From Nostoc sp. PCC 7120 = FACHB-418 (GTDB taxonomy: Bacteria; Cyanobacteriota; Cyanobacteriia; Cyanobacteriales; Nostocaceae), in contig NC_003272.1 of the NCBI RefSeq assembly GCF_000009705.1, positions 3,720,001 through 3,752,000 on the forward strand: a stretch of DNA of 32,000 nucleotides, written 5' to 3'. A program made the translations under genes and the position numbers. How positions within the stretch are numbered: the first letter of the stretch is position 1; the number at the start of each line of letters is the position of its first letter. The notes under the pieces are model-generated. The model saw only the letters and a program-made list of their open reading frames with translations. It ran no database searches and was not told the origin of the DNA. Shown here piece after piece: positions 18,323 to 30,418 of the stretch.

Positions 18323-19015
18323 ATGTTTTTTCACAAGAAAGAACCGATTCACGTTGTAAATATCGGTGAAGCAAACCCTCGTTTTGCTCAATTGCTTTTA
18401 GAGCAATTTGGTGGAGCGACAGGAGAACTATCAGCAGCTTTACAATACTGGGTGCAATCATTCCACGTTGAAAACGCGGGAATTAAAGATATGCTGCAAG
18501 ATATTGCCATCGAAGAATTTAGCCATTTAGAGATGGTTGGCAAACTCATCGAAGCGCATACGAAAAACGTGGATCAAACAGAGGCCTATAAAAGTACTCT
18601 CTTTGCTGTAAGGGGTATGGGGCCTCATTTTCTAGATAGTCAAGGTAATGCTTGGACAGCAAGTTACCTCAATGAAGGTGGAGATGTAGTTCGGGATTTG
18701 AGAGCGAACATTGCAGCTGAAGCGGGAGCGCGTCAAACCTACGAAGAGCTAATCAAACTATCACCAGATGAAGGAACGAAGCAAACTCTAGTTCATCTCC
18801 TCACACGAGAAATTTCTCATACCCAGATGTTTATGAAAGCTTTAGATTCACTGGGTAAATTAACAGATCCATTCTTCGGTAATGTCCAACCCGACGAAAC
18901 AGTGGCGCTCTACTATAACCTATCATCCAATGGGAACGGTCATGATGAACGTGGCCCTTGGAACTCTGAGCCAGCATTCAAATATGTTGCTAACCCACTA
19001 GAAAAACATTCCTAA
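18323..19015 (+). CDS. Manganese catalase
   Basis: LLLEQFGGATGELSAALQYW and the EEFSHLEMV ferritin-like di-metal motifs are present, and the length is 230 aa. The N-terminus MFFHKKE resembles the KatB-type Mn-catalase of Anabaena as I remember it. Confidence 0.9.
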   Translation: MFFHKKEPIHVVNIGEANPRFAQLLLEQFGGATGELSAALQYWVQSFHVENAGIKDMLQDIAIEEFSHLEMVGKLIEAHTKNVDQTEAYKSTLFAVRGMGPHFLDSQGNAWTASYLNEGGDVVRDLRANIAAEAGARQTYEELIKLSPDEGTKQTLVHLLTREISHTQMFMKALDSLGKLTDPFFGNVQPDETVALYYNLSSNGNGHDERGPWNSEPAFKYVANPLEKHS

Positions 19016-19239: not shown

Positions 19240-19968
19240 GTGATTGTGAATGCAACACCAACCGGATGGGAAGTGATTTATCATCGTTCCCACGCTTTGT
19301 TAGCAGCGCAAATAGCAGGACAATGGCAACGAAAAAACGCTCCAGCTAGAATATACGAAACCTTAGCCGCAATTTCTCATCATGATGATTTAGAGAAAGA
19401 ATGGGAGGAAAATAATTTGACTCAAGCAGGCGCGCCAATGGATTTCATGATGAACAAAGAAGCTTCTGTGGAAAAACTGGCGAGTCTCATTAAAAATGCT
19501 CGTTACCGGGGACGATGGGTAACTTTATTAATTTCTATGCACATTAGCCGCTTGACGGAACCAAAACGGGGACAGTCGGCTGAATTAGATGCTTTTTTAG
19601 ATGAACAAATAGAGAATCAACGGCGTTGGCGTGAAGAACTGGGGATAGAAAAAGATGAAGTAGATGCAGCTTATGCTTTCATGCAGTGGTGCGATCGCCT
19701 GTCTCTCATCTTATGCCAAAAAGAACTACCTGCGGATGAACGGTTTTTAGAAATTAGTAAAGGCCCCGACGGTCAACGCTATGACATCATGCAACGTAGC
19801 GATAATTTAGTCACAGTCAAACCTTGGCCTTTTGAAGACGATAAGTTTACGGTTAATGTCGAAGCTTGCGACTTACAACAGGCCAAATTTGCGAGTAACA
19901 GCAAACTAACTCAAGCACTACAAACCGCCCCAATCAAGGTGCTAGAGTGGACTTTCGTTAAAAAGTAA
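19240..19968 (+). CDS. DUF3891-family protein (HD-like motif SHHDD)
   Basis: A GTG start follows an AGGAG RBS. The N-terminus WEVIYHRSHALLAAQIAGQW and the motif AISHHDD match my recollection of DUF3891. Confidence 0.7.
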   Translation: MIVNATPTGWEVIYHRSHALLAAQIAGQWQRKNAPARIYETLAAISHHDDLEKEWEENNLTQAGAPMDFMMNKEASVEKLASLIKNARYRGRWVTLLISMHISRLTEPKRGQSAELDAFLDEQIENQRRWREELGIEKDEVDAAYAFMQWCDRLSLILCQKELPADERFLEISKGPDGQRYDIMQRSDNLVTVKPWPFEDDKFTVNVEACDLQQAKFASNSKLTQALQTAPIKVLEWTFVKK

Positions 19969-19982
19969 CAATTTGCCAATAA

Positions 19983-20054
19983 TTAAAAAGCATCTGGGAG
20001 TGTTGCCGTGTTTCCACCCCAGATGCTTTTTAGTTTCAACTTGCTCCTCACACA
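19983..20054 (-). ncRNA. yfr2: Yfr2-family sRNA, copy 1
   Basis: The minus strand reads GUGUGAGGAGCAAGUUGAAACUAAAAAGCAUCUGGGGUGGAAACACGGCAACACUCCCAGAUGCUUUUUAA. It has the 5' GUGAGGAG box, a GGAAACA loop and a terminator U-tract. An extended -10 (TGATATCCT) lies at 20060..20068. The ends are approximate. Confidence 0.75.
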
Positions 20055-20059
20055 ACTAG

Positions 20060-20068
20060 AGGATATCA
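20060..20068 (-). promoter_or_regulatory. Extended -10 element (TGaTATCCT) for Yfr2 copy 1
   Basis: A TGnTAnnnT element ends 6-8 nt upstream of the GUGUGAGGAG 5' box. The same arrangement is found at all four copies. Confidence 0.6.
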
Positions 20069-20142
20069 CTTGTTATTTTATTTAGCAAGTATATTGTATG
20101 ACACTTTGCCAACTGCACAGAAAACTCTCAGTGTAGCCTCAA

Positions 20143-20215
20143 TTAAAAAGCGCCTGGGAGTGTTGCCGTGTTTCCACCCCAGACGCTTTTTATTTTTAAC
20201 TTGCTCCTCACACAC
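20143..20215 (-). ncRNA. yfr2: Yfr2-family sRNA, copy 2
   Basis: The minus strand reads GUGUGUGAGGAGCAAGUUAAAAAUAAAAAGCGUCUGGGGUGGAAACACGGCAACACUCCCAGGCGCUUUUUAA. It is identical to copy 3 over about 80 nt. An extended -10 (TGTTATTGT) lies at 20222..20230. Confidence 0.75.
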
Positions 20216-20221
20216 AAATAA

Positions 20222-20230
20222 ACAATAACA
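20222..20230 (-). promoter_or_regulatory. Extended -10 element (TGtTATTGT) for Yfr2 copy 2
   Basis: It has the same TGnTAnnnT form and position as at the other copies. Confidence 0.55.
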
Positions 20231-20346
20231 CTGGCAATCATAAATAGTAAATCTATCCTGTGACAGTTTGCTATCTGCACAAAACAGGAGTATTTCGGCG
20301 GAATTTTAACATTCCTGTCCACTGGGACAACTGACACGCACAGCGC

Positions 20347-20421
20347 AATAAAAAAGCGCCTGGGAGTGTTGCCGTGTTTCCACCCCAGACGCTTTTTATT
20401 TTTAACTTGCTCCTCACACAC
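20347..20421 (-). ncRNA. yfr2: Yfr2-family sRNA, copy 3
   Basis: Its sequence is the same as copy 2. An extended -10 (TGATACTTT) lies at 20428..20436. Confidence 0.75.
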
Positions 20422-20427
20422 AAATAA

Positions 20428-20436
20428 AAAGTATCA
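20428..20436 (-). promoter_or_regulatory. Extended -10 element (TGaTACTTT) for Yfr2 copy 3
   Basis: It has the same TGnTAnnnT form and position as at the other copies. Confidence 0.55.
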
Positions 20437-20833
20437 CTTATTTTTTGAGAAGACAAGTATAATGCGTGACTCTTTATGAATTCTTTAAAGAAAATATCGG
20501 GATCGGTAATAACTGAGTAAAAATTCTTAACATAAATAGGCTACCTGTTGCCTGGTTAAGCTGATATTAACGCAACAGTATGTGAATCTAACAAAGCTAT
20601 AATTTTAAAGGCAACATTAACTAGACTGCCAAAAAAAGCTACCGAAGAGATGAAGTTGTATTTATGAACTTTGTAAAACACCAAGTTATAAAAGTTACCT
20701 ATTTTCCCCGTCCCTACTTCAAAATTGAAATTTCCGACTAATCAATCTGTAATATATATCCCAAGATTGTTGCCGCTTGCAAAAAAACACTTGATTTTTC
20801 ATAAAACCGTTACTGCCAAGGATTAATTGCAGT

Positions 20834-23800
20834 ATGTCAAATATCCAGCGCTCTCATTTGCAGCGTTACTGTATCTCTATTGTGTCGGTATTATTGGCGC
20901 TGTTGCTAGGCTTAACGCTGGGAAGATATTTAAAAGTAGAGATTTCACCACTGTTTTTTGCATCTGTAGTCTTTAGTAGTTGGTACGGCGGATTAGCACC
21001 AGGTTTAGTTGCTACAGTCTTGGCTATTTTAGTTAAGAATTACTTTTTTATTACACCATTCAACTCAATAGCAGTTAGCCAAGGTAATGATTTACTCAAT
21101 TTAATCGTGTTTGCTTCTGTAGCAGTATTAATTAGTTCATTAAATTTGCAAGTCCTTACGGCAAGGGAAGTGTCTGAGGCAAAATTGGGTAAGTTGAAGG
21201 TGAATTATCGCCAATTGTTAGAGACAGCCTATGAAGGTATTTGGATATTTGACAGTGAAGGAAAGACAGAATATGTCAGCCCTCAGCTAGCCCAAATACT
21301 TGGTTACAGTGTAGAACGAATAGGCGAATTCTCAATTTTTAATTTTCTAGAACCCCAGGCGCGTTTGGAAATTGAGCAATGGCTAGAGCAACAGCAAAAG
21401 TACAATCACCAAACTAAACAGCAGTTTGATTTACGTTTACAACGCCGCGATGGAGCCTCACTTTGGGTAATTGTTTCTCTCAGTTCCATACTGGATAAGC
21501 ATAGAAGATTTTCTGGTGCAGTTGCCATGCTAACTGATATTACAGAGCATAAGCACGAACAAGCAGAACCTGACCTCGAACGTCAACGCCTGCGCGCCAT
21601 CCTTGATATTCTACCAATGGGAGTAGTGATTTCTGACGCTAAAGGACAGCTTTTAGAAATTAATCCTGGCGTGAAAGCGATTTGGGGAGAAGATGCGCCA
21701 TTGCTCGATAATACTAGCCAATATCATCAATATAAAGGATGGTGGCCGGATACAGGTCAACCCCTGACAGCCGCAGAATGGACACTAGCTCGTACCCTAG
21801 CTACAGGTGAAGCGATAATTGGAGAAGAGATTGATATTGCAACATTTGATGGCAAGCGAAAAACCATCCTCAATTCTGCCGTCCCCATTTATGATGCCAC
21901 TGGAGCGATAGTTAATGCTGTAACTGTTAATGTAGATATTACTGAGCGTAAACGGGTAGAAGCCGCCTTAAGGCAGAGTGAAGCACTAGCCAAAGCACGG
22001 GCAGAAGAACTCGAAACGATCATGGAGACTGTGCCGGCTGCTGTCTGGATTGCCCATGATCCTCTTTGCCATTCCATGAGTGTCAATCGTGCTGCTTATG
22101 ACATGATGCGAGTACCACCAGGTTCTGTGATGACCGCAACCCCAGCTAGTGGAGGATATCCTTTTCCTTTTAAAATCCAAAAAAATGGTCAAGATATTCC
22201 TCTGAATGAGTTGGCAATGCAGCAAGCCGGACTGACTGGACAAGAAGTGGAAGCGGAAGTTGAATTTTTCTTCAGCCCGGAGGATGTACGACACATTTAC
22301 GGTAAGGCTATCCCCTTGTGCGATCCAGATGGTAATGTCCGAGGCGTGATTGGGGCGTTTTTGGATGTCACTGAACGCCAACAGTTGATGTCTTTGTTAC
22401 AACAAAAACAAGAATGGCTAGATTTAGCACAGAAGTCAGGAAAAATAGGCAGTTTTGACTGGAAATTAACTAGTAATATCAATGTTTGGTCACAAGAGTT
22501 AGAAGAAATTTATGGTTTGCAGCCTGGCGAGTTTGGCGGTACTTTTGCAGACTGGGCAAAACACGTTCATCCCGATGATTTAGCTAGGGTAGAAGTGGAA
22601 TTGCGGGAATTGTTGAACACAGGCTCAAAGGAATTTTTTAGTGATTTTCGCATCATTCGTCAGGATGGAAGTATTTGTTGGCTACAGTCGAGAGCCAGAG
22701 TTTTCTATGATGATCATGGTCAACCATTACGCATGGTAGGGGTAAATGTCGATGTGACTGAGCGCAAACAAGCAGAAGCAGCGCTACAGCAAAGTGAGGC
22801 TAGACTAAAACGATTATTGCAATCGAGTATTATTGGTATTATTGAGGCAGATCCAGAACGCATTAATTTTGCTAACGATGCCTTCTTGAAAATTGTCGGC
22901 TATACACATGAGGACTTGCTCACAGGAAAGTTGCGTTGGCAAGACATGACTCCACCAGAATACAGCGAACTGGATCAAGCCAAGGTGGAGGAAGTAATAA
23001 ACTCTGGGTTCTGCATTCCCTTTGAGAAAGAATATATCCGTAAAGACGGTTCTCGTGTTCCTATTTTATTAGGTGCTGCCCGATTGAGTTCCAGCCCGCT
23101 AACATGGGTTTGTTTTATTCTAGATTTAACCGAACGCAAACAAGCACAAGCAGCATTACAACAAAGTGAGTTGATGTTCCGCACATTAGCGGACACCATG
23201 CCGCAAATGTTTTGGATTACCCAGCCTAATGGCTACCACGAGTATTTCAATCAACGTTGGTATGATTATACAGGAACAACATTAGAACAAACCCAAGGCG
23301 CAGGGTGGCAAAATATTCTTCATCCTGATGATGTGCAACGCACTATAGAACAGTGGCAAGATAGCCTCGATACTGGCAAAGACTATGATATTGAGTATCG
23401 TTTGCGTCGTGCTGCTGATGGGGAATATCGTTGGCATTTAGGTAGAGCCTTTCCATTAAGAGATGAAAATGGTCGAATCTTGAAATGGTTTGGTTCCTGC
23501 ACAGATATTCACGACCAAAAGCTAGCAATTGAGGAACGCGCCCAGGCTTGGGAACAGGAACGTGCCGCCAGGATAGAGTTAGAACGAGCCAACCGGATGA
23601 AAGATGATTTCTTAGCAATAGTCTCTCACGAGTTGCGATCGCCTCTCAATCCCATTCTCGGTTGGGCAAAACTCCTCAAGAGTCGCAAACTGGATGCACT
23701 CAAGACTAATCAAGCCCTAGAAGTTATCGAACGCAATGCCAAATTACAAGCCCGGTTAATCGACGATTTACTAGATGTTTCCCGGATTTTACGCGGTAAG

Positions 23801-24706
23801 CTGAGTTTGAATGTCTGCACTGTTGACTTAGTAACCACCATCGAAGCCGCATTAGAAACAGTGCGTCTCACGGCTGAAAGTAAATCAATTCACATCCAAA
23901 CTGAGTTAACATCTCATGTGTGCAGAGTTGAAGGCGACCCCAACCGTTTACAGCAAGTGGTGTGGAATCTACTGACAAATGCCGTAAAATTCACACCGGA
24001 AGGCGGTCAAATAGAAGTCAGTCTAGAAAGAGTTGGTTCTTTAGCCCACATTCAAGTCAGGGATACAGGAAAAGGTATTAGTCTCGACTTTCTCCCCTAT
24101 GTGTTTGAACGCTTCCGCCAAGCCGACGAGGTAACAACCAGAAAATTCGGCGGACTAGGGTTAGGGTTAGCCATAGTCCGCCATCTTGTAGAACTCCACG
24201 GTGGTGCTGTCCAGGTAACAAGCCCAGGCGAAGGATTAGGGACAACATTTACAGTCAAACTACCCCTGATTGCTGTTTCTCAAATATATGAAGAGCATTT
24301 TGTGGCTGACACTACCCCAAATCTGCAAGGCTTGCGTATGGTAGTTGTAGATGATGATGCTGATACTTTAGAATTGCTCAGTTTTATTTTGGAACAGTAT
24401 GGAGTGGAAGTTAAGGCGGTAAATTCAGCAAATGAAGCATTGGAGGCGATCGCTCACACCAAACCAGATTTATTATTAAGTGATATTGGAATGCCAGAAG
24501 TTGACGGCTATATGCTGATTAAGCAAATCAGAAGTATGGAAGTAGCATCCGGCACAAAACTACCAGCGATCGCCCTCACCGCATTTGCTGGCGAAACCAA
24601 CTTTCAAAAGATTATGTCTGCTGGTTTCCAAAGGCATTTAACCAAACCCGTAGAGCCATCAGAATTGGCAACCGCCATAGCCAACCTAATTCAAAGTAAT
24701 TCGTAA
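20834..24706 (+). CDS. Hybrid sensor histidine kinase: DUF4118-like membrane module, six PAS/PAC units, HisKA, HATPase_c and receiver
   Basis: The N-terminus is hydrophobic and KdpD-like. Six PAS units each end in a ...D(I/V)TERK.AEAALQQSE-type linker. The H-box SHELRSPLN and the G-boxes DTGKGI and GGLGLGLAIV are present. The receiver has VVDDD...DIGMPEVDG...TKP. Confidence 0.92.
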   Translation: MSNIQRSHLQRYCISIVSVLLALLLGLTLGRYLKVEISPLFFASVVFSSWYGGLAPGLVATVLAILVKNYFFITPFNSIAVSQGNDLLNLIVFASVAVLISSLNLQVLTAREVSEAKLGKLKVNYRQLLETAYEGIWIFDSEGKTEYVSPQLAQILGYSVERIGEFSIFNFLEPQARLEIEQWLEQQQKYNHQTKQQFDLRLQRRDGASLWVIVSLSSILDKHRRFSGAVAMLTDITEHKHEQAEPDLERQRLRAILDILPMGVVISDAKGQLLEINPGVKAIWGEDAPLLDNTSQYHQYKGWWPDTGQPLTAAEWTLARTLATGEAIIGEEIDIATFDGKRKTILNSAVPIYDATGAIVNAVTVNVDITERKRVEAALRQSEALAKARAEELETIMETVPAAVWIAHDPLCHSMSVNRAAYDMMRVPPGSVMTATPASGGYPFPFKIQKNGQDIPLNELAMQQAGLTGQEVEAEVEFFFSPEDVRHIYGKAIPLCDPDGNVRGVIGAFLDVTERQQLMSLLQQKQEWLDLAQKSGKIGSFDWKLTSNINVWSQELEEIYGLQPGEFGGTFADWAKHVHPDDLARVEVELRELLNTGSKEFFSDFRIIRQDGSICWLQSRARVFYDDHGQPLRMVGVNVDVTERKQAEAALQQSEARLKRLLQSSIIGIIEADPERINFANDAFLKIVGYTHEDLLTGKLRWQDMTPPEYSELDQAKVEEVINSGFCIPFEKEYIRKDGSRVPILLGAARLSSSPLTWVCFILDLTERKQAQAALQQSELMFRTLADTMPQMFWITQPNGYHEYFNQRWYDYTGTTLEQTQGAGWQNILHPDDVQRTIEQWQDSLDTGKDYDIEYRLRRAADGEYRWHLGRAFPLRDENGRILKWFGSCTDIHDQKLAIEERAQAWEQERAARIELERANRMKDDFLAIVSHELRSPLNPILGWAKLLKSRKLDALKTNQALEVIERNAKLQARLIDDLLDVSRILRGKLSLNVCTVDLVTTIEAALETVRLTAESKSIHIQTELTSHVCRVEGDPNRLQQVVWNLLTNAVKFTPEGGQIEVSLERVGSLAHIQVRDTGKGISLDFLPYVFERFRQADEVTTRKFGGLGLGLAIVRHLVELHGGAVQVTSPGEGLGTTFTVKLPLIAVSQIYEEHFVADTTPNLQGLRMVVVDDDADTLELLSFILEQYGVEVKAVNSANEALEAIAHTKPDLLLSDIGMPEVDGYMLIKQIRSMEVASGTKLPAIALTAFAGETNFQKIMSAGFQRHLTKPVEPSELATAIANLIQSNS

Positions 24707-24748
24707 TTTCGCCAAGATAAAACCCGGACAATAAAAGGCTTTCAAGTC

Positions 24749-24778
24749 TGTCAACAGACAACAGACAACTGTCAACAG
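24749..24778. repeat. STRR heptamer tract (TGTCAAC/AGACAAC) x4
   Basis: The four units read directly are TGTCAAC AGACAAC AGACAAC TGTCAAC. Confidence 0.8.
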
Positions 24779-24783
24779 CCATA

Positions 24784-24855
24784 AATTAAAAAGCGCTCAG
24801 AAGTGTTACCGTGTTTCCACTCTAAGCGCTCTTAATTTCAACTTGCTCCTCACAC
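24784..24855 (-). ncRNA. yfr2: Yfr2-family sRNA, copy 4 (divergent stem, conserved loop and 5' box)
   Basis: The minus strand reads GUGUGAGGAGCAAGUUGAAAUUAAGAGCGCUUAGAGUGGAAACACGGUAACACUUCUGAGCGCUUUUUAAUU. An extended -10 (TGTTATCTT) lies at 24862..24870. Confidence 0.72.
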
Positions 24856-24861
24856 TATTAG

Positions 24862-24870
24862 AAGATAACA
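24862..24870 (-). promoter_or_regulatory. Extended -10 element (TGtTATCTT) for Yfr2 copy 4
   Basis: It has the same TGnTAnnnT form and position as at copies 1-3. Confidence 0.55.
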
Positions 24871-25059
24871 CCGCCTTGAAATCAAAACTAATGTTATCAG
24901 TGACACTTTCCTAACTGCACCATTGTGAGAAGTGAGCAAGTGCTAAATTTTCACCTTTTTAACGCTGAGTAACGCTAAGGTTAGCGCCAAGGCACGCAGA
25001 GGTTTTCTGATGAGCATTCGCTAGTTATCAAATAATCAAGCGCTCCTCTACACCCATCT

Positions 25060-29021: not shown

Positions 29022-30029
29022 ATGACAACTACACCAAGCCCTACCATAAATACAAAAATAACTCCTTTTAACTCTAAGTTAAATTCTCCTTTAATCAAAC
29101 AAGAAATCAATGTTTTACAAATTAATTTAGGTAAACGCTGTAATCTTGCTTGTACACACTGTCATGTTGAAGCTAGCCCAAAACGCACAGAAGAGTTAAC
29201 AGCAGAAATCTGCCAACAGTTAATCGAGGTAATTCACCGATTCCCGCAAATTCAAATTGTCGATTTAACTGGCGGCGCACCAGAAATGAACTATGGATTT
29301 AAGCCATTAGTAGCAGCCGCACGCCAAAATAATAAACAGGTAATTGTCCGTTCCAATTTAACTATTTATTTTGTGGAGGGGTTTAACGATTTACCTGAAT
29401 ATTTTGCTGCCAACAAAATCAGAATTGTAGCATCCATGCCTTGCTACCTAGCAGATAATGTCGATAAAATGCGTGGTACAGGTGTATTTGATGATTCCAT
29501 TAAAGCTTTACAATGGCTAAATCAAGTTGGCTATGGCAGAGACCCCAGTTTAATTTTAGATTTGGTTTATAATCCCCAACTACCTACAAGTGAAAAATTT
29601 GCCCTAACCCCTGAGCAAAGTAAATTGGAGCAAGACTATAAAACCTTCTTACAAGAACATTTCCATATTAAATTTAACAACCTGTTCACGATTACTAACC
29701 TACCAGTTGGCAGAACCAAACTCTATTTAGAACGGAAAAAACTAGAAACCAGTTATTTGCAGTTTTTAGAATTGCATTTCAACCCGCATACAGTAGGAAA
29801 TTTAATGTGTCGCAATCAATTATCTATAGACTATTTAGGTAATATATATGATTGTGATTTTAATCAGATGATGAATTTACCAGCGAAAACTCTGAATGGC
29901 GAAACTCTGACTGTTGCTAAATTAATCGAGGCTAGTAGTTTGGATCTGATTAATGAAATTCAAACTGCAAACTATTGCTATGGTTGTACTGCTGGTTGTG
30001 GTTCTAGTTGCAGTGGTGCTTTGGTATGA
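29022..30029 (+). CDS. arsS: Radical SAM / Cys-rich-domain protein, ArsS type (arsenosugar biosynthesis)
   Basis: The CxxxCxxC motif is CNLACTHC. The C-terminal Cys-rich tail CYGCTAGCGSSCSG matches my memory of the radical-SAM/Cys-rich (seleno)protein family found beside ArsM-like methyltransferases. This is the all-Cys form, with no in-frame TGA. Confidence 0.75.
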   Translation: MTTTPSPTINTKITPFNSKLNSPLIKQEINVLQINLGKRCNLACTHCHVEASPKRTEELTAEICQQLIEVIHRFPQIQIVDLTGGAPEMNYGFKPLVAAARQNNKQVIVRSNLTIYFVEGFNDLPEYFAANKIRIVASMPCYLADNVDKMRGTGVFDDSIKALQWLNQVGYGRDPSLILDLVYNPQLPTSEKFALTPEQSKLEQDYKTFLQEHFHIKFNNLFTITNLPVGRTKLYLERKKLETSYLQFLELHFNPHTVGNLMCRNQLSIDYLGNIYDCDFNQMMNLPAKTLNGETLTVAKLIEASSLDLINEIQTANYCYGCTAGCGSSCSGALV

Positions 30030-30126
30030 CAGGGAACACTCAGTTGCAAATAATTGTTCTATGTCAGCAAAGGTTAATTTTATTACAAACAGTGTTATTT
30101 TGCATTGAGAATAGCTGAGATGCGTT

Positions 30127-30132
30127 TATGAT
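30127..30132 (+). promoter_or_regulatory. -10 box TATGAT (with TTGAGA at 30105..30110, 16-nt spacer) for Yfr1-like copy A
   Basis: The hexamer lies 21 nt upstream of the CUCCUCACAC motif, the same distance as at copy B. Confidence 0.6.
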
Positions 30133-30138
30133 GTATTT

Positions 30139-30208
30139 AGTTTAAATCTCCTCACACCACATTAAAAAAACCGTAGATTACTCAATGTTTCTACGGTTTT
30201 TATTTTTT
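30139..30208 (+). ncRNA. yfr1: Yfr1-like sRNA, copy A
   Basis: The plus strand has ...UUUAAAU-CUCCUCACACCAC-AUU followed by the terminator AAAAAACCGUAGA(12-nt loop)UCUACGGUUUUUAUUUUUU. The motif is at 30148..30157. The 5' end is inferred from the -10 box. The canonical Yfr1 5' stem-loop is at best a weak AUUUA/UAAAU hairpin. Confidence 0.65.
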
Positions 30209-30345: not shown

Positions 30346-30351
30346 TATGAT
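30346..30351 (+). promoter_or_regulatory. -10 box TATGAT for Yfr1-like copy B
   Basis: The hexamer lies 21 nt upstream of the CUCCUCACAC motif. The palindrome ACTGCCgGGCAGT at 30328..30340 sits in the -35 region. Confidence 0.55.
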
Positions 30352-30357
30352 GATCTA

Positions 30358-30418
30358 TTAGTTAAGCTCCTCACACCACACAAAAAGCCGCGAAACAACT
30401 AGTTTCGTGGTTTTTTTA
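30358..30418 (+). ncRNA. yfr1: Yfr1-like sRNA, copy B
   Basis: The plus strand has ...GUUAAG-CUCCUCACACCAC-ACAAAAAG followed by the terminator CCGCGAAAC(aacua)GUUUCGUGGUUUUUUU. The motif is at 30367..30376. The terminator sequence is unrelated to that of copy A, but the single-stranded box is identical. Confidence 0.65.

What the first reader, a model, noticed from the sequence alone, without database searches (positions are those of the whole stretch)
19983..20436. Tandem array of three Yfr2-family sRNA genes hidden under two spurious ORFs
Three units of about 72-75 nt lie at 19983-20054, 20143-20215 and 20347-20421, spaced 160 and 206 bp apart. On the minus strand each reads 5'-GUGUGAGGAGCAAGUU, an A/U linker, a stem enclosing GGUGGAAACACGGCAACAC, and a U-tract. 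Copies 2 and 3 are identical over about 80 nt. Copy 1 differs in the stem by paired changes that preserve base-pairing (plus-strand arms GCGCC/GACGC become GCATC/GATGC). The two stem mismatches on the plus strand (C-A and A-C) become G-U wobbles on the minus strand, so the minus strand is the one under structural selection. Each unit also has its own TGnTAnnnT extended -10, ending 6-10 nt before the 5' box. A 5' GUGAGGAG box plus a GGAAACA loop is what I recall as the signature of the cyanobacterial Yfr2 family. The copy 1 hairpin also forms a perfect stem with a T-run on the plus strand, so it can also terminate the upstream DUF3891 gene.
Basis: partly seen in the sequence, partly recalled or inferred. 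Interest (0 to 1): 0.7.

Follow-up and report, generated by a model that had tools for sequence, protein, structure and literature searches.

The report
Known Yfr2 small-RNA gene cluster

Summary
The window is the Nostoc/Anabaena sp. PCC 7120 chromosome, most likely chr 3,720,001-3,752,000. The three units match Rfam Cyano-1 (RF01701, the Rfam model for the Yfr2 family) on the minus strand at 57-59 bits against a gathering score of 41. Together these are the "four Yfr2 RNAs" already published for this strain. The published Yfr2 in-vitro-transcription primers match copy 1 exactly, and a published dRNA-seq TSS (chr 3740053) falls on the first G of copy 1's GUGUGAGGAG box. Across 49 distinct units from syntenic Nostocaceae loci, the 17-bp stem is 98% paired, with 7 covarying pairs and 72 G-U against 5 A-C cells. 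This confirms the minus strand. The overlapping ORFs are not conserved. The known mechanism is that the 5' box pairs with the Yfr1 motif and sequesters Yfr1. Three things may be new. Published NtcA ChIP-seq peaks, which were assigned to neighbouring genes, sit on GT-N10-AC sites at class-II spacing in the promoters of copies 1, 3 and 4. A half-site resembling the picocyanobacterial CGRE1 element lies at about -57. A tandem pair of Yfr1-motif sRNAs lies 10 kb away. Overall the finding is already known and of low interest.

The parts
19985..20053 (-). Yfr2 copy 1 RNA. 5' box GUGUGAGGAGCAAGUU at 20038-20053, 12-nt loop GAAACACGGCAA, perfect 17-bp stem with a bulged U, then U5.
   Evidence: Rfam Cyano-1 at 59.1 bits. 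Published TSS 3740053r and end 3739990 map here. Published Yfr2 primers match exactly. Fold dG -27.0 kcal/mol.
20145..20215 (-). Yfr2 copy 2 RNA. The 5' end is inferred to lie 7 nt after the -10 hexamer, so the RNA would start GUGUGUGAGGAG.
   Evidence: Cyano-1 at 57.9 bits. Identical to copy 3 over 78 nt. The TSS is not documented in the sources I could read.
20350..20421 (-). Yfr2 copy 3 RNA (5' end inferred).
   Evidence: Cyano-1 at 57.4 bits. Fold dG -26.0 kcal/mol on the minus strand against -20.4 on the plus strand.
24788..24855 (-). Yfr2 copy 4 RNA. It was not in the finding. It lies between the convergent genes alr3092 (+) and purH/all3093 (-).
   Evidence: Cyano-1 at 49.4 bits. Box pattern matches with 0 mismatches. 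Fold dG -21.5 on the minus strand against -13.1 on the plus strand.
20060..20120 (-). Promoter of copy 1: extended -10 TGATATCCT at 20060-20068; -35-like TTGCTA at 20083-20088; NtcA-like GTCATACAATATAC at 20089-20102 (centre about -42.5); AAAGTGTCA at 20099-20107; CGRE1-like half CTGTGCAGTTGG at 20109-20120 (GTTG ends at -57).
   Evidence: coordinates; conservation; GT-N10-AC; NtcA ChIP region #1258, which maps to window 19973-20165.
20222..20282 (-). Promoter of copy 2: extended -10 TGTTATTGT at 20222-20230; AAACTGTCA at 20261-20269; CGRE1-like half with one mismatch, TTGTGCAGATAG, at 20271-20282. It has no GT-N10-AC site.
   Evidence: No ChIP region of its own.
20428..20475 (-). Promoter of copy 3: extended -10 TGATACTTT at 20428-20436; -35-like TTGTCT at 20451-20456; NtcA-like GTCACGCATTATAC at 20457-20470; AAAGAGTCA at 20467-20475. 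It has no CGRE1-like half.
   Evidence: ChIP region #1259 maps to window 20393-20542 with midpoint 20469.
24862..24922 (-). Promoter of copy 4: extended -10 TGTTATCTT at 24862-24870; NtcA-like GTGTCACTGATAAC at 24893-24906; AAAGTGTCA at 24901-24909; CGRE1-like half TGGTGCAGTTAG at 24911-24922.
   Evidence: ChIP region #1261 maps to window 24781-25028, midpoint 24905, NLQ 135.
19985..20040 (+). The copy 1 hairpin read on the plus strand, followed by TTTTTAGTTT. It begins 17 nt after the alr3091 (DUF3891) stop codon, which ends at 19968, and is a possible bidirectional terminator.
   Evidence: Plus-strand dG -26.5 kcal/mol. The first unit lies 2-67 nt after the DUF3891 gene in 14 genomes, but there is no extra selection against G-U pairs.
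30139..30205 (+). Probable pairing partner: a Yfr1-motif ('Yfr10-like') sRNA, the published TSS 3750139f. CUCCUCACAC at 30148-30157, -10 TATGAT at 30127-30132, terminator stem ending at 30196.
   Evidence: Predicted 10-bp duplex with the Yfr2 5' box, ddG about -19 to -20.5 kcal/mol.
30358..30418 (+). Second, tandem Yfr1-motif unit: -10 TATGAT at 30346-30351, GCUCCUCACACCACA at 30366-30380, terminator followed by U7. I did not see it in the published table rows I read.
   Evidence: Predicted 11-bp duplex with the Yfr2 box, ddG -22.4 kcal/mol.

Best explanation
The window holds the complete Yfr2 sRNA gene set of Nostoc/Anabaena sp. PCC 7120. Three tandem genes lie between alr3091 (DUF3891) and alr3092 (a hybrid histidine kinase), and a fourth lies just beyond alr3092. 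All four are on the minus strand. Each is its own transcription unit, with an extended -10 promoter, an RNA of about 69-72 nt, and a Rho-independent terminator that also forms the conserved stem-loop.

Mechanism: the unstructured, nearly invariant 5' end GUGUGAGGAG(C) base-pairs with the CUCCUCACAC motif of Yfr1 and of Yfr1-motif sRNAs, two of which lie 10 kb away in this window. Yfr2 therefore acts as a sponge that relieves Yfr1's repression of its cell-wall and porin mRNA targets. Multiple gene copies supply the dose.

What is inferred: transcription of copies 2-4; that the A/U linker is the RNase E site that removes the 5' motif; and copy-specific nitrogen control, with NtcA acting at GT-N10-AC sites centred near -42 in copies 1, 3 and 4, plus a CGRE1-like half-site at about -57 in copies 1, 4 and, degenerate, 2.
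For: Identity: Rfam Cyano-1 hits 49-59 bits against a gathering score of 41, all on the minus strand. The flanking proteins are exact matches to BAB74789-92 of PCC 7120. Published Yfr2 primers match copy 1 exactly. The published Yfr2 TSS and end map to the box G and the stem end.

Structure and strand: 98.3% of cells paired, 7 of 17 pairs with compensatory change, 0 of 500 shuffles reaching the observed score, and slid controls at 43-62% paired. 72 G-U against 5 A-C cells. The minus strand is 5.6-8.4 kcal/mol more stable for copies 2-4.

Family anatomy as defined by Voss 2009 is present: 12-nt loop, bulge at -4, unpaired 5' end.

Mechanism: Nostoc Yfr2 binds Yfr1 in EMSA, and 'four repeats' are reported in this genome. 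Yfr2 cancels Yfr1 repression, and RNase E cleaves Yfr2 unless it is bound. Yfr2 is in the PatR targetome and is described as trapping Yfr1. In the window, a perfect 10-11-bp duplex is predicted with ddG -19 to -22 kcal/mol, against about -10 for shuffled 5' ends.

Promoters: TG-extended -10 in 50 of 53 units.

NtcA: ChIP regions #1258, #1259 and #1261 map onto the promoters of copies 1, 3 and 4. Each region contains exactly one GT-N10-AC, and copy 2 has neither a site nor a peak. The motif is present in 35 of 52 promoters against 0-2 in shifted controls. A -10 box at class-II spacing exists only in the Yfr2 direction. The chance of 3 of 4 promoters overlapping ChIP regions is about 0.002. Copy 1 reads rise from 291 to 965 eight hours after nitrogen step-down.
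Against: Only copy 1 has a documented TSS in the material I could read. Copies 2-4 are absent from Table S3 of PMC4734099, and the primary TSS paper was not available. The sponge function in Nostoc rests on an in-vitro EMSA and on analogy with Prochlorococcus; the authors themselves mark it with a question mark. The role of the invariant loop is unknown, and Yfr2 also pulls down hundreds of mRNAs in Prochlorococcus, so sponging may not be its only activity. On the NtcA reading: the third position of the sites is C or G rather than the consensus A; copies 1 and 3 keep a -35-like box; the ChIP NLQ values are modest (39-135); the ChIP authors listed no site and assigned the peaks to alr3092/all3093; and copy 1 reads fall in the hetR mutant (2240 to 938).
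Confidence: 0.88

Rival explanations
1. Yfr2 is mainly a direct trans-acting regulator of mRNAs. It would work through its 5' motif and/or the conserved loop GGAAACA, with Yfr1 binding being only one of many interactions.
For: In Prochlorococcus, 404 enriched peaks on 302 mRNAs were pulled down with Yfr2. The authors propose that the RNase E-cleaved form acts through the stem-loop motif. The loop is invariant in 49 units, which the sponge model does not explain. A CTCCTCACAC site also occurs inside the alr3090 coding sequence at 18797-18806.
Against: No Nostoc mRNA target is documented. Yfr1 and Yfr10 out-compete an mRNA target for Yfr2 even at low amounts. This reading is not exclusive of the sponge model.
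Confidence: 0.2
2. Yfr2 is a protein-titrating RNA, in the manner of CsrB/RsmZ. The GGA-containing box and loop would sequester an RNA-binding protein such as PatR.
For: Voss 2009 noted GGA/ANGGA-like motifs. Yfr2 is in the PatR targetome. Multiple gene copies and high abundance fit a titration role.
Against: No CsrA/RsmA homologue exists in cyanobacteria. PatR binds many RNAs. Each RNA carries only one or two GGA motifs.
Confidence: 0.1
3. The units are merely repeated (bidirectional) intrinsic terminators for the flanking protein genes and do not make an RNA product of their own.
For: Each unit ends in a strong hairpin with an A-run and a T-run on either side. Copy 1 lies 17 nt after the alr3091 stop codon and folds equally well on both strands.
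Against: A terminator does not need an invariant 16-nt 5' box or an invariant loop. G-U against A-C asymmetry is 72:5. Each unit has its own conserved extended -10 promoter. There is a mapped TSS with hundreds to thousands of dRNA-seq reads. Copies 2 and 3 have no convergent gene to terminate.
Confidence: 0.02
4. The region encodes small proteins: the 92-aa, 61-aa and 45-aa minus-strand ORFs or the 52-aa plus-strand ORF.
For: The ORFs exist mechanically. The 52-aa plus-strand ORF is present once in a protein archive, as UPI0002E63DA0.
Against: The other three ORFs are not in a collection of 15 billion proteins, and the fourth is a singleton. The 61-aa frame has 3 stops in the closest relative, and the 92-aa frame has 1-5 stops in L019 and L012. 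Beyond the closest genomes, only the roughly 25-aa stretches lying over the RNA units align. No CDS is annotated between BAB74790 and BAB74791, whose accession numbers are consecutive.
Confidence: 0.01

Closest known systems
Yfr2 family / Rfam Cyano-1 (RF01701): Yfr2-5 of Prochlorococcus MED4, Yfr2a-c of Synechocystis 6803, and the four Yfr2 RNAs of Nostoc sp. PCC 7120
   Same: This is the same thing. The sequence of copy 1 is the published Nostoc Yfr2. All four units have the family's 5' box, 12-nt loop, bulge and terminator, and they are multi-copy as in other cyanobacteria, where 1-9 copies are reported.
   Different: Nothing differs at the RNA level. Nostocales units have a single GGAAACA in the loop (GGAAACACGGCAACAC), whereas marine picocyanobacteria have GGAAACAAGGAAACAC. 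Unlike Synechocystis Yfr2b and Yfr2c, none is fused to a downstream mRNA, because the downstream genes are convergent.
Yfr1/Yfr10 - Yfr2 sponge circuit (Lambrecht 2019; Brenes-Alvarez 2020)
   Same: The 10-11-nt perfect complementarity between the Yfr2 5' end and the CUCCUCACAC motif is present in this window, including with the published Yfr1-motif sRNA TSS 3750139f.
   Different: In-vivo antagonism has been shown only in an E. coli reporter with Prochlorococcus RNAs. For Nostoc there is only an EMSA. The second, tandem Yfr1-motif unit at about 30358-30418 is not mentioned in the sources I read.
CGRE1 / GntR regulator PMM1637 (PlmA) control of yfr2 in marine picocyanobacteria (Lambrecht 2018)
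   Same: The conserved element GTGCAGTT(G/A) lies upstream of yfr2 with its proximal edge at -56/-57. This is the same position and nearly the same sequence as the proximal half (GTGACAGTTG) of the marine palindrome.
   Different: Only a half-site is recognisable; the full 21-22-nt palindrome is absent. One base is missing relative to the marine half. [quoted passage not shown] There are no binding data for Nostoc PlmA.
Canonical NtcA-activated class II promoters (GTA-N8-TAC at -41.5, TAN3T -10)
   Same: GT-N10-AC lies 22-25 nt upstream of a TAN3T box, centred at about -42.5. There is in-vivo NtcA ChIP signal and nitrogen step-down induction.
   Different: The third position is C or G rather than A. 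A -35-like hexamer is retained in copies 1 and 3. The ChIP scores are modest. Copy 2 lacks the site.
NsiR1 tandem sRNA array of Nostocales (RF02399)
   Same: Both are head-to-tail arrays of short sRNA genes, each with its own promoter and terminator, in heterocystous cyanobacteria, and both are nitrogen-responsive.
   Different: It is an unrelated sequence family with HetR-dependent, heterocyst-specific promoters. NsiR1 was seen here only in a related locus, L052.

Membership tests
Yfr2 / Cyano-1 (RF01701) | Covariance-model score at or above the Rfam gathering threshold, on the proposed strand | tested here: met
   59.1, 57.9, 57.4 and 49.4 bits against a gathering score of 41, all on the minus strand, with full-length model matches 1-69. 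No other family comes near its threshold.
Yfr2 / Cyano-1 (RF01701) | 12-nt central loop carrying the conserved GGAAACA element, on a long stem with a single-nucleotide bulge at position -4 from the loop (Voss 2009) | tested here: met
   Loop GAAACACGGCAA is 12 nt, and a bulged U follows 3 bp after the loop on the 3' side, in all four MFE folds. The loop columns are invariant in 49 units.
Yfr2 / Cyano-1 (RF01701) | Highly conserved, unpaired 5' end of 8-13 nt | tested here: met
   GUGUGAGGAG is invariant across 49 units. The 5' 20 nt are essentially unpaired in the MFE structures.
Yfr2 / Cyano-1 (RF01701) | Stem supported by covariation on the transcribed strand | tested here: met
   98.3% of cells paired; 7 pairs with changes on both sides; 42 such cells against 11.8 in shuffles (0 of 500 shuffles reach it); slid controls 43-62% paired. 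72 G-U against 5 A-C cells.
Yfr2 / Cyano-1 (RF01701) | Expressed as a discrete small RNA from its own promoter | tested here: inconclusive
   For copy 1, the published dRNA-seq TSS and end map exactly, with 291-2240 reads. For copies 2-4 the only evidence is a conserved extended -10 promoter; no transcript data could be read.
Yfr2 / Cyano-1 (RF01701) | Sequence identity with the RNA named Yfr2 in this organism's literature | tested here: met
Yfr1-sequestering sponge RNA | Accessible sequence complementary to the conserved Yfr1/Yfr10 motif | tested here: met
   CTCCTCACAC is the exact complement of the box. A 10-11-bp duplex is predicted with the in-window Yfr1-motif sRNAs while both terminator hairpins stay intact. 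That the motif contains UCCU is confirmed.
Yfr1-sequestering sponge RNA | Relief of Yfr1-mediated repression in vivo in Nostoc | not testable with these tools
   Only an EMSA for Nostoc and an E. coli reporter assay with Prochlorococcus RNAs are published.
NtcA-activated class II promoter | GTA-N8-TAC (at minimum GT-N10-AC) centred near -41.5, about 22 nt upstream of a TAN3T -10 box | tested here: inconclusive
   Copies 1 and 3 have GTC-N8-TAC 23 nt upstream of the -10. Copy 4 has GTG-N8-AAC 25 nt upstream. Copy 2 has none. The consensus A at position 3 is missing. The motif is present in 35 of 52 promoters across genomes against 0-2 in control windows. A -10 box exists only in the Yfr2 direction.
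NtcA-activated class II promoter | NtcA occupancy in vivo | tested here: met
   Published ChIP-seq regions #1258, #1259 and #1261 (NLQ 59.8, 39.3, 135) cover the sites of copies 1, 3 and 4. The midpoints are about 6 nt from the site centre for copies 3 and 4. The mapping depends on the +3,720,000 offset, which two sRNA entries corroborate.
NtcA-activated class II promoter | ntcA-dependent induction on nitrogen step-down | not testable with these tools
   Only wild-type and hetR read counts are available: 291 to 965 in the wild type and 2240 to 938 in the hetR mutant.
CGRE1 (PlmA/PMM1637 operator) | 21-22-nt palindrome flanked by GTTG/GTTA and its inverted repeat | tested here: not met
   Only the promoter-proximal half, (T)GTGCAGTT(G/A), is recognisable. 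The left half is absent or degenerate, with TCACAAT present only in copy-4-type promoters.
CGRE1 (PlmA/PMM1637 operator) | Proximal edge 55-57 nt upstream of the yfr2 TSS | tested here: met
   GTTG/GTTA ends at -57 relative to the mapped or inferred TSS in copies 1 and 4. In marine promoters it ends at -55/-56 relative to GTGAGGAG.
CGRE1 (PlmA/PMM1637 operator) | Bound by the GntR-family regulator | not testable with these tools
   No Nostoc PlmA binding data were found.
Intrinsic terminator of alr3091 (plus strand) | Stable GC-containing hairpin followed by a T-run just after the stop codon, with conservation of plus-strand pairing | tested here: inconclusive
   The hairpin and T-run are present (dG -26.5 kcal/mol). 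The arrangement is conserved in 14 genomes, but plus-strand pairing is not preferentially preserved (mean -19.8 kcal/mol, p = 0.24 against other units).

The most novel reading that the evidence does not exclude
The yfr2 promoters of Nostocales are composite and differ from copy to copy. One element is an NtcA class-II-type site, occupied in vivo in the published ChIP-seq but attributed there to neighbouring protein genes. It would drive copies 1, 3 and 4. The other element is a half-site homologous to the picocyanobacterial CGRE1 operator, at the same -57 position in copies 1, 4 and (degenerate) 2. If so, GntR/PlmA-type control of yfr2 is ancestral to cyanobacteria rather than a picocyanobacterial speciality. 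The nitrogen signal would then reach the Yfr1 regulon by a direct chain from NtcA to Yfr2 to Yfr1. A second, apparently undescribed tandem Yfr1-motif sRNA lies 10 kb away and has an 11-nt perfect match to Yfr2.
Probability: 0.35. Interest if true: 0.4.

Novelty: already known. Interest (0 to 1): 0.18.

Why it matters
The RNA genes themselves do not change anything. Yfr2, its four copies in PCC 7120, its nitrogen induction and its binding to Yfr1 are all published, and the absence of these genes from a CDS-only annotation is the usual fate of sRNA genes.

The finding does show that reading sequence alone can correctly recover an sRNA family, its strand and its promoters.

The by-products are modestly useful to specialists. 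First, three NtcA ChIP-seq peaks in a widely used dataset are better explained by yfr2 promoters than by alr3092/all3093. Second, the four copies carry different combinations of upstream elements, which predicts copy-specific regulation, as is known for yfr2-5 in Prochlorococcus. Third, the possible CGRE1-like half-site makes the open question posed in 2018, whether PlmA homologues regulate yfr2 outside picocyanobacteria, directly testable in a genetically tractable organism.

Tried and rejected
(1) RpaB/HLR1 as the identity of the upstream block. The best matches were 11-12 of 16 positions, no better than shuffles, so this was rejected.

(2) Other Rfam families over the array. Everything apart from Cyano-1 is far below its gathering score. 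No family matches the Yfr1-motif units.

(3) Protein-coding reading of the overlapping ORFs. Rejected.

(4) Selection for a bidirectional terminator in the unit next to the DUF3891 gene. No signal.

(5) Concerted evolution of copies 2 and 3. Within-genome differences are 1, 4 and 4, against 2-6 between orthologues, so the evidence is weak and suggestive only for PCC 7120.

(6) Presence of the array in Nostoc punctiforme-type genomes. It is absent from eight loci scanned with Rfam, and some carry PsrR1 in that spacer instead.

(7) Primary TSS paper (Mitschke 2011). It is not held. The supplement of the CGRE1 paper is also not held, so I reconstructed the CGRE1 sequence from 108 marine metagenomic yfr2 promoters rather than reading it from the authors' figure.

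(8) The exact Yfr1 motif from Voss 2007. Instead, the motif is pinned by the in-window RNA that Lambrecht 2019 names as carrying it.

(9) Plus-direction promoters for the NtcA sites. None exists at class-II spacing.
Full report
**What is there.** Reading the region on the minus strand and running the repeat finder confirm three direct copies at 19980-20072, 20140-20232 and 20346-20438, spaced 160 and 206 bp. Each reads GUGUGAGGAGCAAGUU, then an A/U linker, a long hairpin enclosing GGUGGAAACACGGCAACAC, and a U-run. Copies 2 and 3 are identical over 78 nt, 20145-20222 against 20351-20428. A full-window Rfam scan gives Cyano-1 (RF01701) hits on the minus strand at 19982-20057, 20142-20217 and 20348-20423, scoring 59.1, 57.9 and 57.4 bits against a gathering score of 41. 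A permissive scan of the array finds nothing else near threshold. Rfam has no separately named Yfr2 model that matches. Cyano-1 is the family's Rfam representation, and PMC8400943 states that equivalence.

**Where the window comes from.** Four flanking proteins are exact matches to BAB74789-BAB74792 (alr3090 Mn-catalase, alr3091 DUF3891, alr3092 hybrid histidine kinase, all3093 PurH) on a 6,413,771-bp contig, which is the Nostoc/Anabaena sp. PCC 7120 chromosome. Table S3 of Brenes-Alvarez 2016 lists "Yfr2" with TSS 3740053 (reverse) and end 3739990, and a second sRNA at 3750139-3750196 (forward). With an offset of 3,720,000 the first entry lands on the first G of copy 1's box (20053) and the last stem base (19990). 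The second lands 7 nt after a TATGAT box (30139) and on the last base of a terminator stem (30196). Two independent entries therefore fix the window as chr 3,720,001-3,752,000.

**This is the published Yfr2.** Brenes-Alvarez 2020 (PMC6974561) reports "four repeats" of Yfr2 in this genome, its up-regulation under nitrogen deprivation, and an EMSA showing that Nostoc Yfr2 binds Yfr1. Their primers for the Yfr2 in-vitro transcript match copy 1 with zero mismatches at both ends. The three tandem units plus the copy at 24.8 kb are thus the complete, already known Yfr2 complement of the strain. The anatomy that defines the family in Voss 2009 is a 12-nt loop on a long stem, a one-nucleotide bulge at -4 from the loop, an unpaired 5' end, and two extremely conserved stretches. 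All four MFE folds show it.

**Structure and strand.** I fetched 80 syntenic loci using the DUF3891 protein. Arrays of one to four minus-strand units directly follow that gene in Anabaena/Trichormus, Aliinostoc, Fortiea, Cyanocohniella, Goleter and related genomes. They are absent from Nostoc punctiforme-type genomes. Forty-nine distinct units align with 90% mean column identity, and the 5' box and loop are invariant. The 17-bp stem is 98.3% paired. Seven pairs change on both sides, and no shuffle reaches the observed covariation. Slid controls drop to 43-62% paired. There are 72 G-U cells against 5 A-C cells. The minus strand folds 5.6-8.4 kcal/mol better than the plus strand for copies 2-4, and only copy 1 is symmetric at -27.0 against -26.5. 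The detail is that copies 2 and 3 each have one plus-strand C-A mismatch rather than two kinds of mismatch.

**The ORFs.** The mechanical ORFs over the array are 92, 61 and 45 aa on the minus strand and 52 aa on the plus strand. They are not genes. Three are absent from a collection of 15 billion proteins and the fourth is a singleton. Their frames acquire stops in relatives, and beyond the closest genomes only the parts lying over the RNA units align.

**The terminator side claim.** On the plus strand the copy 1 hairpin is perfect and is followed by TTTTTAGTTT, starting 17 nt after the alr3091 stop codon, so it can physically act as a bidirectional terminator. The first unit sits 2-67 nt from the DUF3891 gene in 14 genomes. 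However, those units do not avoid G-U pairs more than other units do (p = 0.24). There is thus no sign of selection for the plus-strand structure.

**How it works.** The mechanism is taken from the literature and checked against the sequence. In Prochlorococcus, Yfr2 pulls down Yfr1 and Yfr10, abolishes Yfr1 repression of a reporter, and is cleaved by RNase E unless it is bound to Yfr1 or Yfr10. The cleaved form lacks the 5' motif. In Nostoc, Yfr1 represses cell-wall and envelope mRNAs, and Yfr2 is proposed to trap it. [quoted passage not shown] In the window, the exact complement of the box, CTCCTCACAC, occurs seven times against 0.05 expected: four are the Yfr2 genes themselves and three lie elsewhere. 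One of those three is the sRNA at 30139-30205 (+), which Lambrecht 2019 names (TSS 3750139f) as carrying the Yfr1 motif. Another belongs to a second, tandem unit at about 30358-30418 (+) with its own TATGAT box and terminator. Co-folding predicts perfect 10-11-bp duplexes between the unpaired Yfr2 5' end and these motifs. ddG is -19 to -22 kcal/mol against about -10 for shuffled 5' ends, and both terminator hairpins stay intact. The function of the invariant loop remains unexplained.

**Promoters.** Anchoring 53 distinct upstream regions on the -10 hexamer shows a TG-extended -10 in 50 of them. It also shows a -35-like acTTGC 17 nt upstream and a conserved block, TtgtncAntT...AAAGTGTCAC, at about -67 to -45. 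HLR1/RpaB does not explain the block. Two readings have some support.

*NtcA.* A GT-N10-AC motif lies 22-25 nt upstream of the -10 in 35 of 52 promoters, against 0-2 in shifted control windows. In the window the sites are 20089-20102 (copy 1), 20457-20470 (copy 3) and 24893-24906 (copy 4); copy 2 has none. Picossi 2014's NtcA ChIP-seq table lists regions #1258 (3739973-3740165), #1259 (3740393-3740542) and #1261 (3744781-3745028), with NLQ 59.8, 39.3 and 135. These were assigned to alr3092 or all3093 with no site given. Each region contains exactly one GT-N10-AC, and that site is the one in the yfr2 promoter. For copies 3 and 4 the site centre lies about 6 nt from the region midpoint. A TAN3T box at class-II spacing exists only in the yfr2 direction. 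ChIP regions cover about 8% of the genome, so three of four promoters overlapping by chance has P of about 0.002. Against this reading: position 3 of the sites is not A, copies 1 and 3 keep a -35-like box, the peak scores are modest, and reads fall in the hetR mutant. I found no paper linking NtcA directly to yfr2 promoters.

*CGRE1.* Lambrecht 2018 described a 21-22-nt palindrome flanked by GTTG/GTTA, 55-57 nt upstream of yfr2. It is bound by the GntR regulator PMM1637 (PlmA) and was said to be restricted to marine picocyanobacteria. Its sequence was not readable, so I fetched 120 marine-type yfr2 loci from metagenomes. Sixty of 108 distinct promoters carry (C/T)AAC-TGTCAC-AT-GTGACA-GTT(G/A), with the proximal edge at -55/-56. 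The Nostocales distal sub-block GTGCAGTT(G/A) resembles the proximal half, lacking one base. It ends at -57 to -59 relative to the mapped TSS, in 18 of 53 promoters by a strict pattern against 0.14 expected. In the window it is present in copies 1 and 4, present with one mismatch in copy 2, and absent from copy 3. Only a half-site is visible, and the Nostocales promoters are related by descent. I estimate the cross-clade match at roughly p of about 0.02 after allowing for choices of window, offset and gap. That estimate is my own inference, not a tool result.

**Verdict.** The finding is real and correctly interpreted, and it is already known in this very strain. The only additions are the missed fourth copy, the re-attribution of three NtcA ChIP peaks to yfr2 promoters, a possible CGRE1-like half-site, and a second tandem Yfr1-motif unit. 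These are incremental and partly speculative.

Noticed in passing
window 30358-30418 (+), with 30139-30205 (+): This is a tandem pair of short sRNA-like units carrying the Yfr1 motif (CUCCUCACACCACA). Each has a TATGAT -10 box and a terminator, and they are spaced 219 bp apart. The first is the published TSS 3750139f, with reads 19 to 133 on nitrogen step-down. The second was not in the table rows or papers I read and may be undescribed. Its motif gives an 11-bp perfect match to the Yfr2 5' end.
   Followed up: partly
window 29922-30131: NtcA ChIP region #1263 (chr 3749922-3750131) was assigned by its authors to the 3' end of a gene. It ends just upstream of the Yfr1-motif sRNA TSS at 30139, which is induced 7-fold after nitrogen step-down in both the wild type and the hetR mutant (19 to 133 and 15 to 83 reads). 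By eye I saw only a weak GT-N10-AT at class-II spacing.
   Followed up: no
window 18797-18806 (+): An exact CTCCTCACAC, the complement of the Yfr2 5' box, lies inside the alr3090 (Mn-catalase) coding sequence, two genes upstream of the array. It could be a Yfr2 pairing site on that mRNA or a chance occurrence.
   Followed up: no
L004:7974-8054, L013:7974-8053, L028:8060-8140 (+): In Nostoc punctiforme-type and Komarekiella genomes the spacer after the DUF3891 gene holds a PsrR1 sRNA gene (RF02701, 52-60 bits) instead of Yfr2 units. The same intergenic slot therefore hosts different sRNA genes in different Nostocales lineages.
   Followed up: no
L052:849-2163 (+): A five-copy tandem NsiR1 array (RF02399, 60-75 bits) lies about 5 kb upstream of the DUF3891 gene in Desmonostoc geniculatum.
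   Followed up: no
L005/L008:7830-8265, L019:2966-3370, L055:7812-8510 compared with window 20053-24855: In several genomes the unit with the copy-4-type promoter (ATGGTGCAGTT...GTGTCACT) sits directly next to the other units. In PCC 7120, L001, L002, L012, L026, L044 and L063 it is 1.5-5.3 kb away; in PCC 7120 that interval is the histidine-kinase gene alr3092. The array therefore seems to have been split by gain of that gene, or joined by its loss.
   Followed up: no
window 20145-20222 and 20351-20428: Copies 2 and 3 are identical across the whole transcribed region although their promoters are unrelated upstream of the -10. In L002 both copies share a loop variant (GGCCACAC) that copy 1 lacks. 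This hints at gene conversion between neighbouring copies, but the mismatch counts make it only weakly supported.
   Followed up: partly
window 20099-20107, 20261-20269, 20467-20475, 24901-24909 (-): The most conserved promoter positions are AAA followed by (G/C)(T/A)GTCA at about -54 to -46. This is shared even with marine yfr2 promoters, which have AAAC at the same offset after GTTG. It overlaps the left edge of the NtcA-like site but extends beyond it, and neither the NtcA nor the CGRE1 reading fully explains it.
   Followed up: partly
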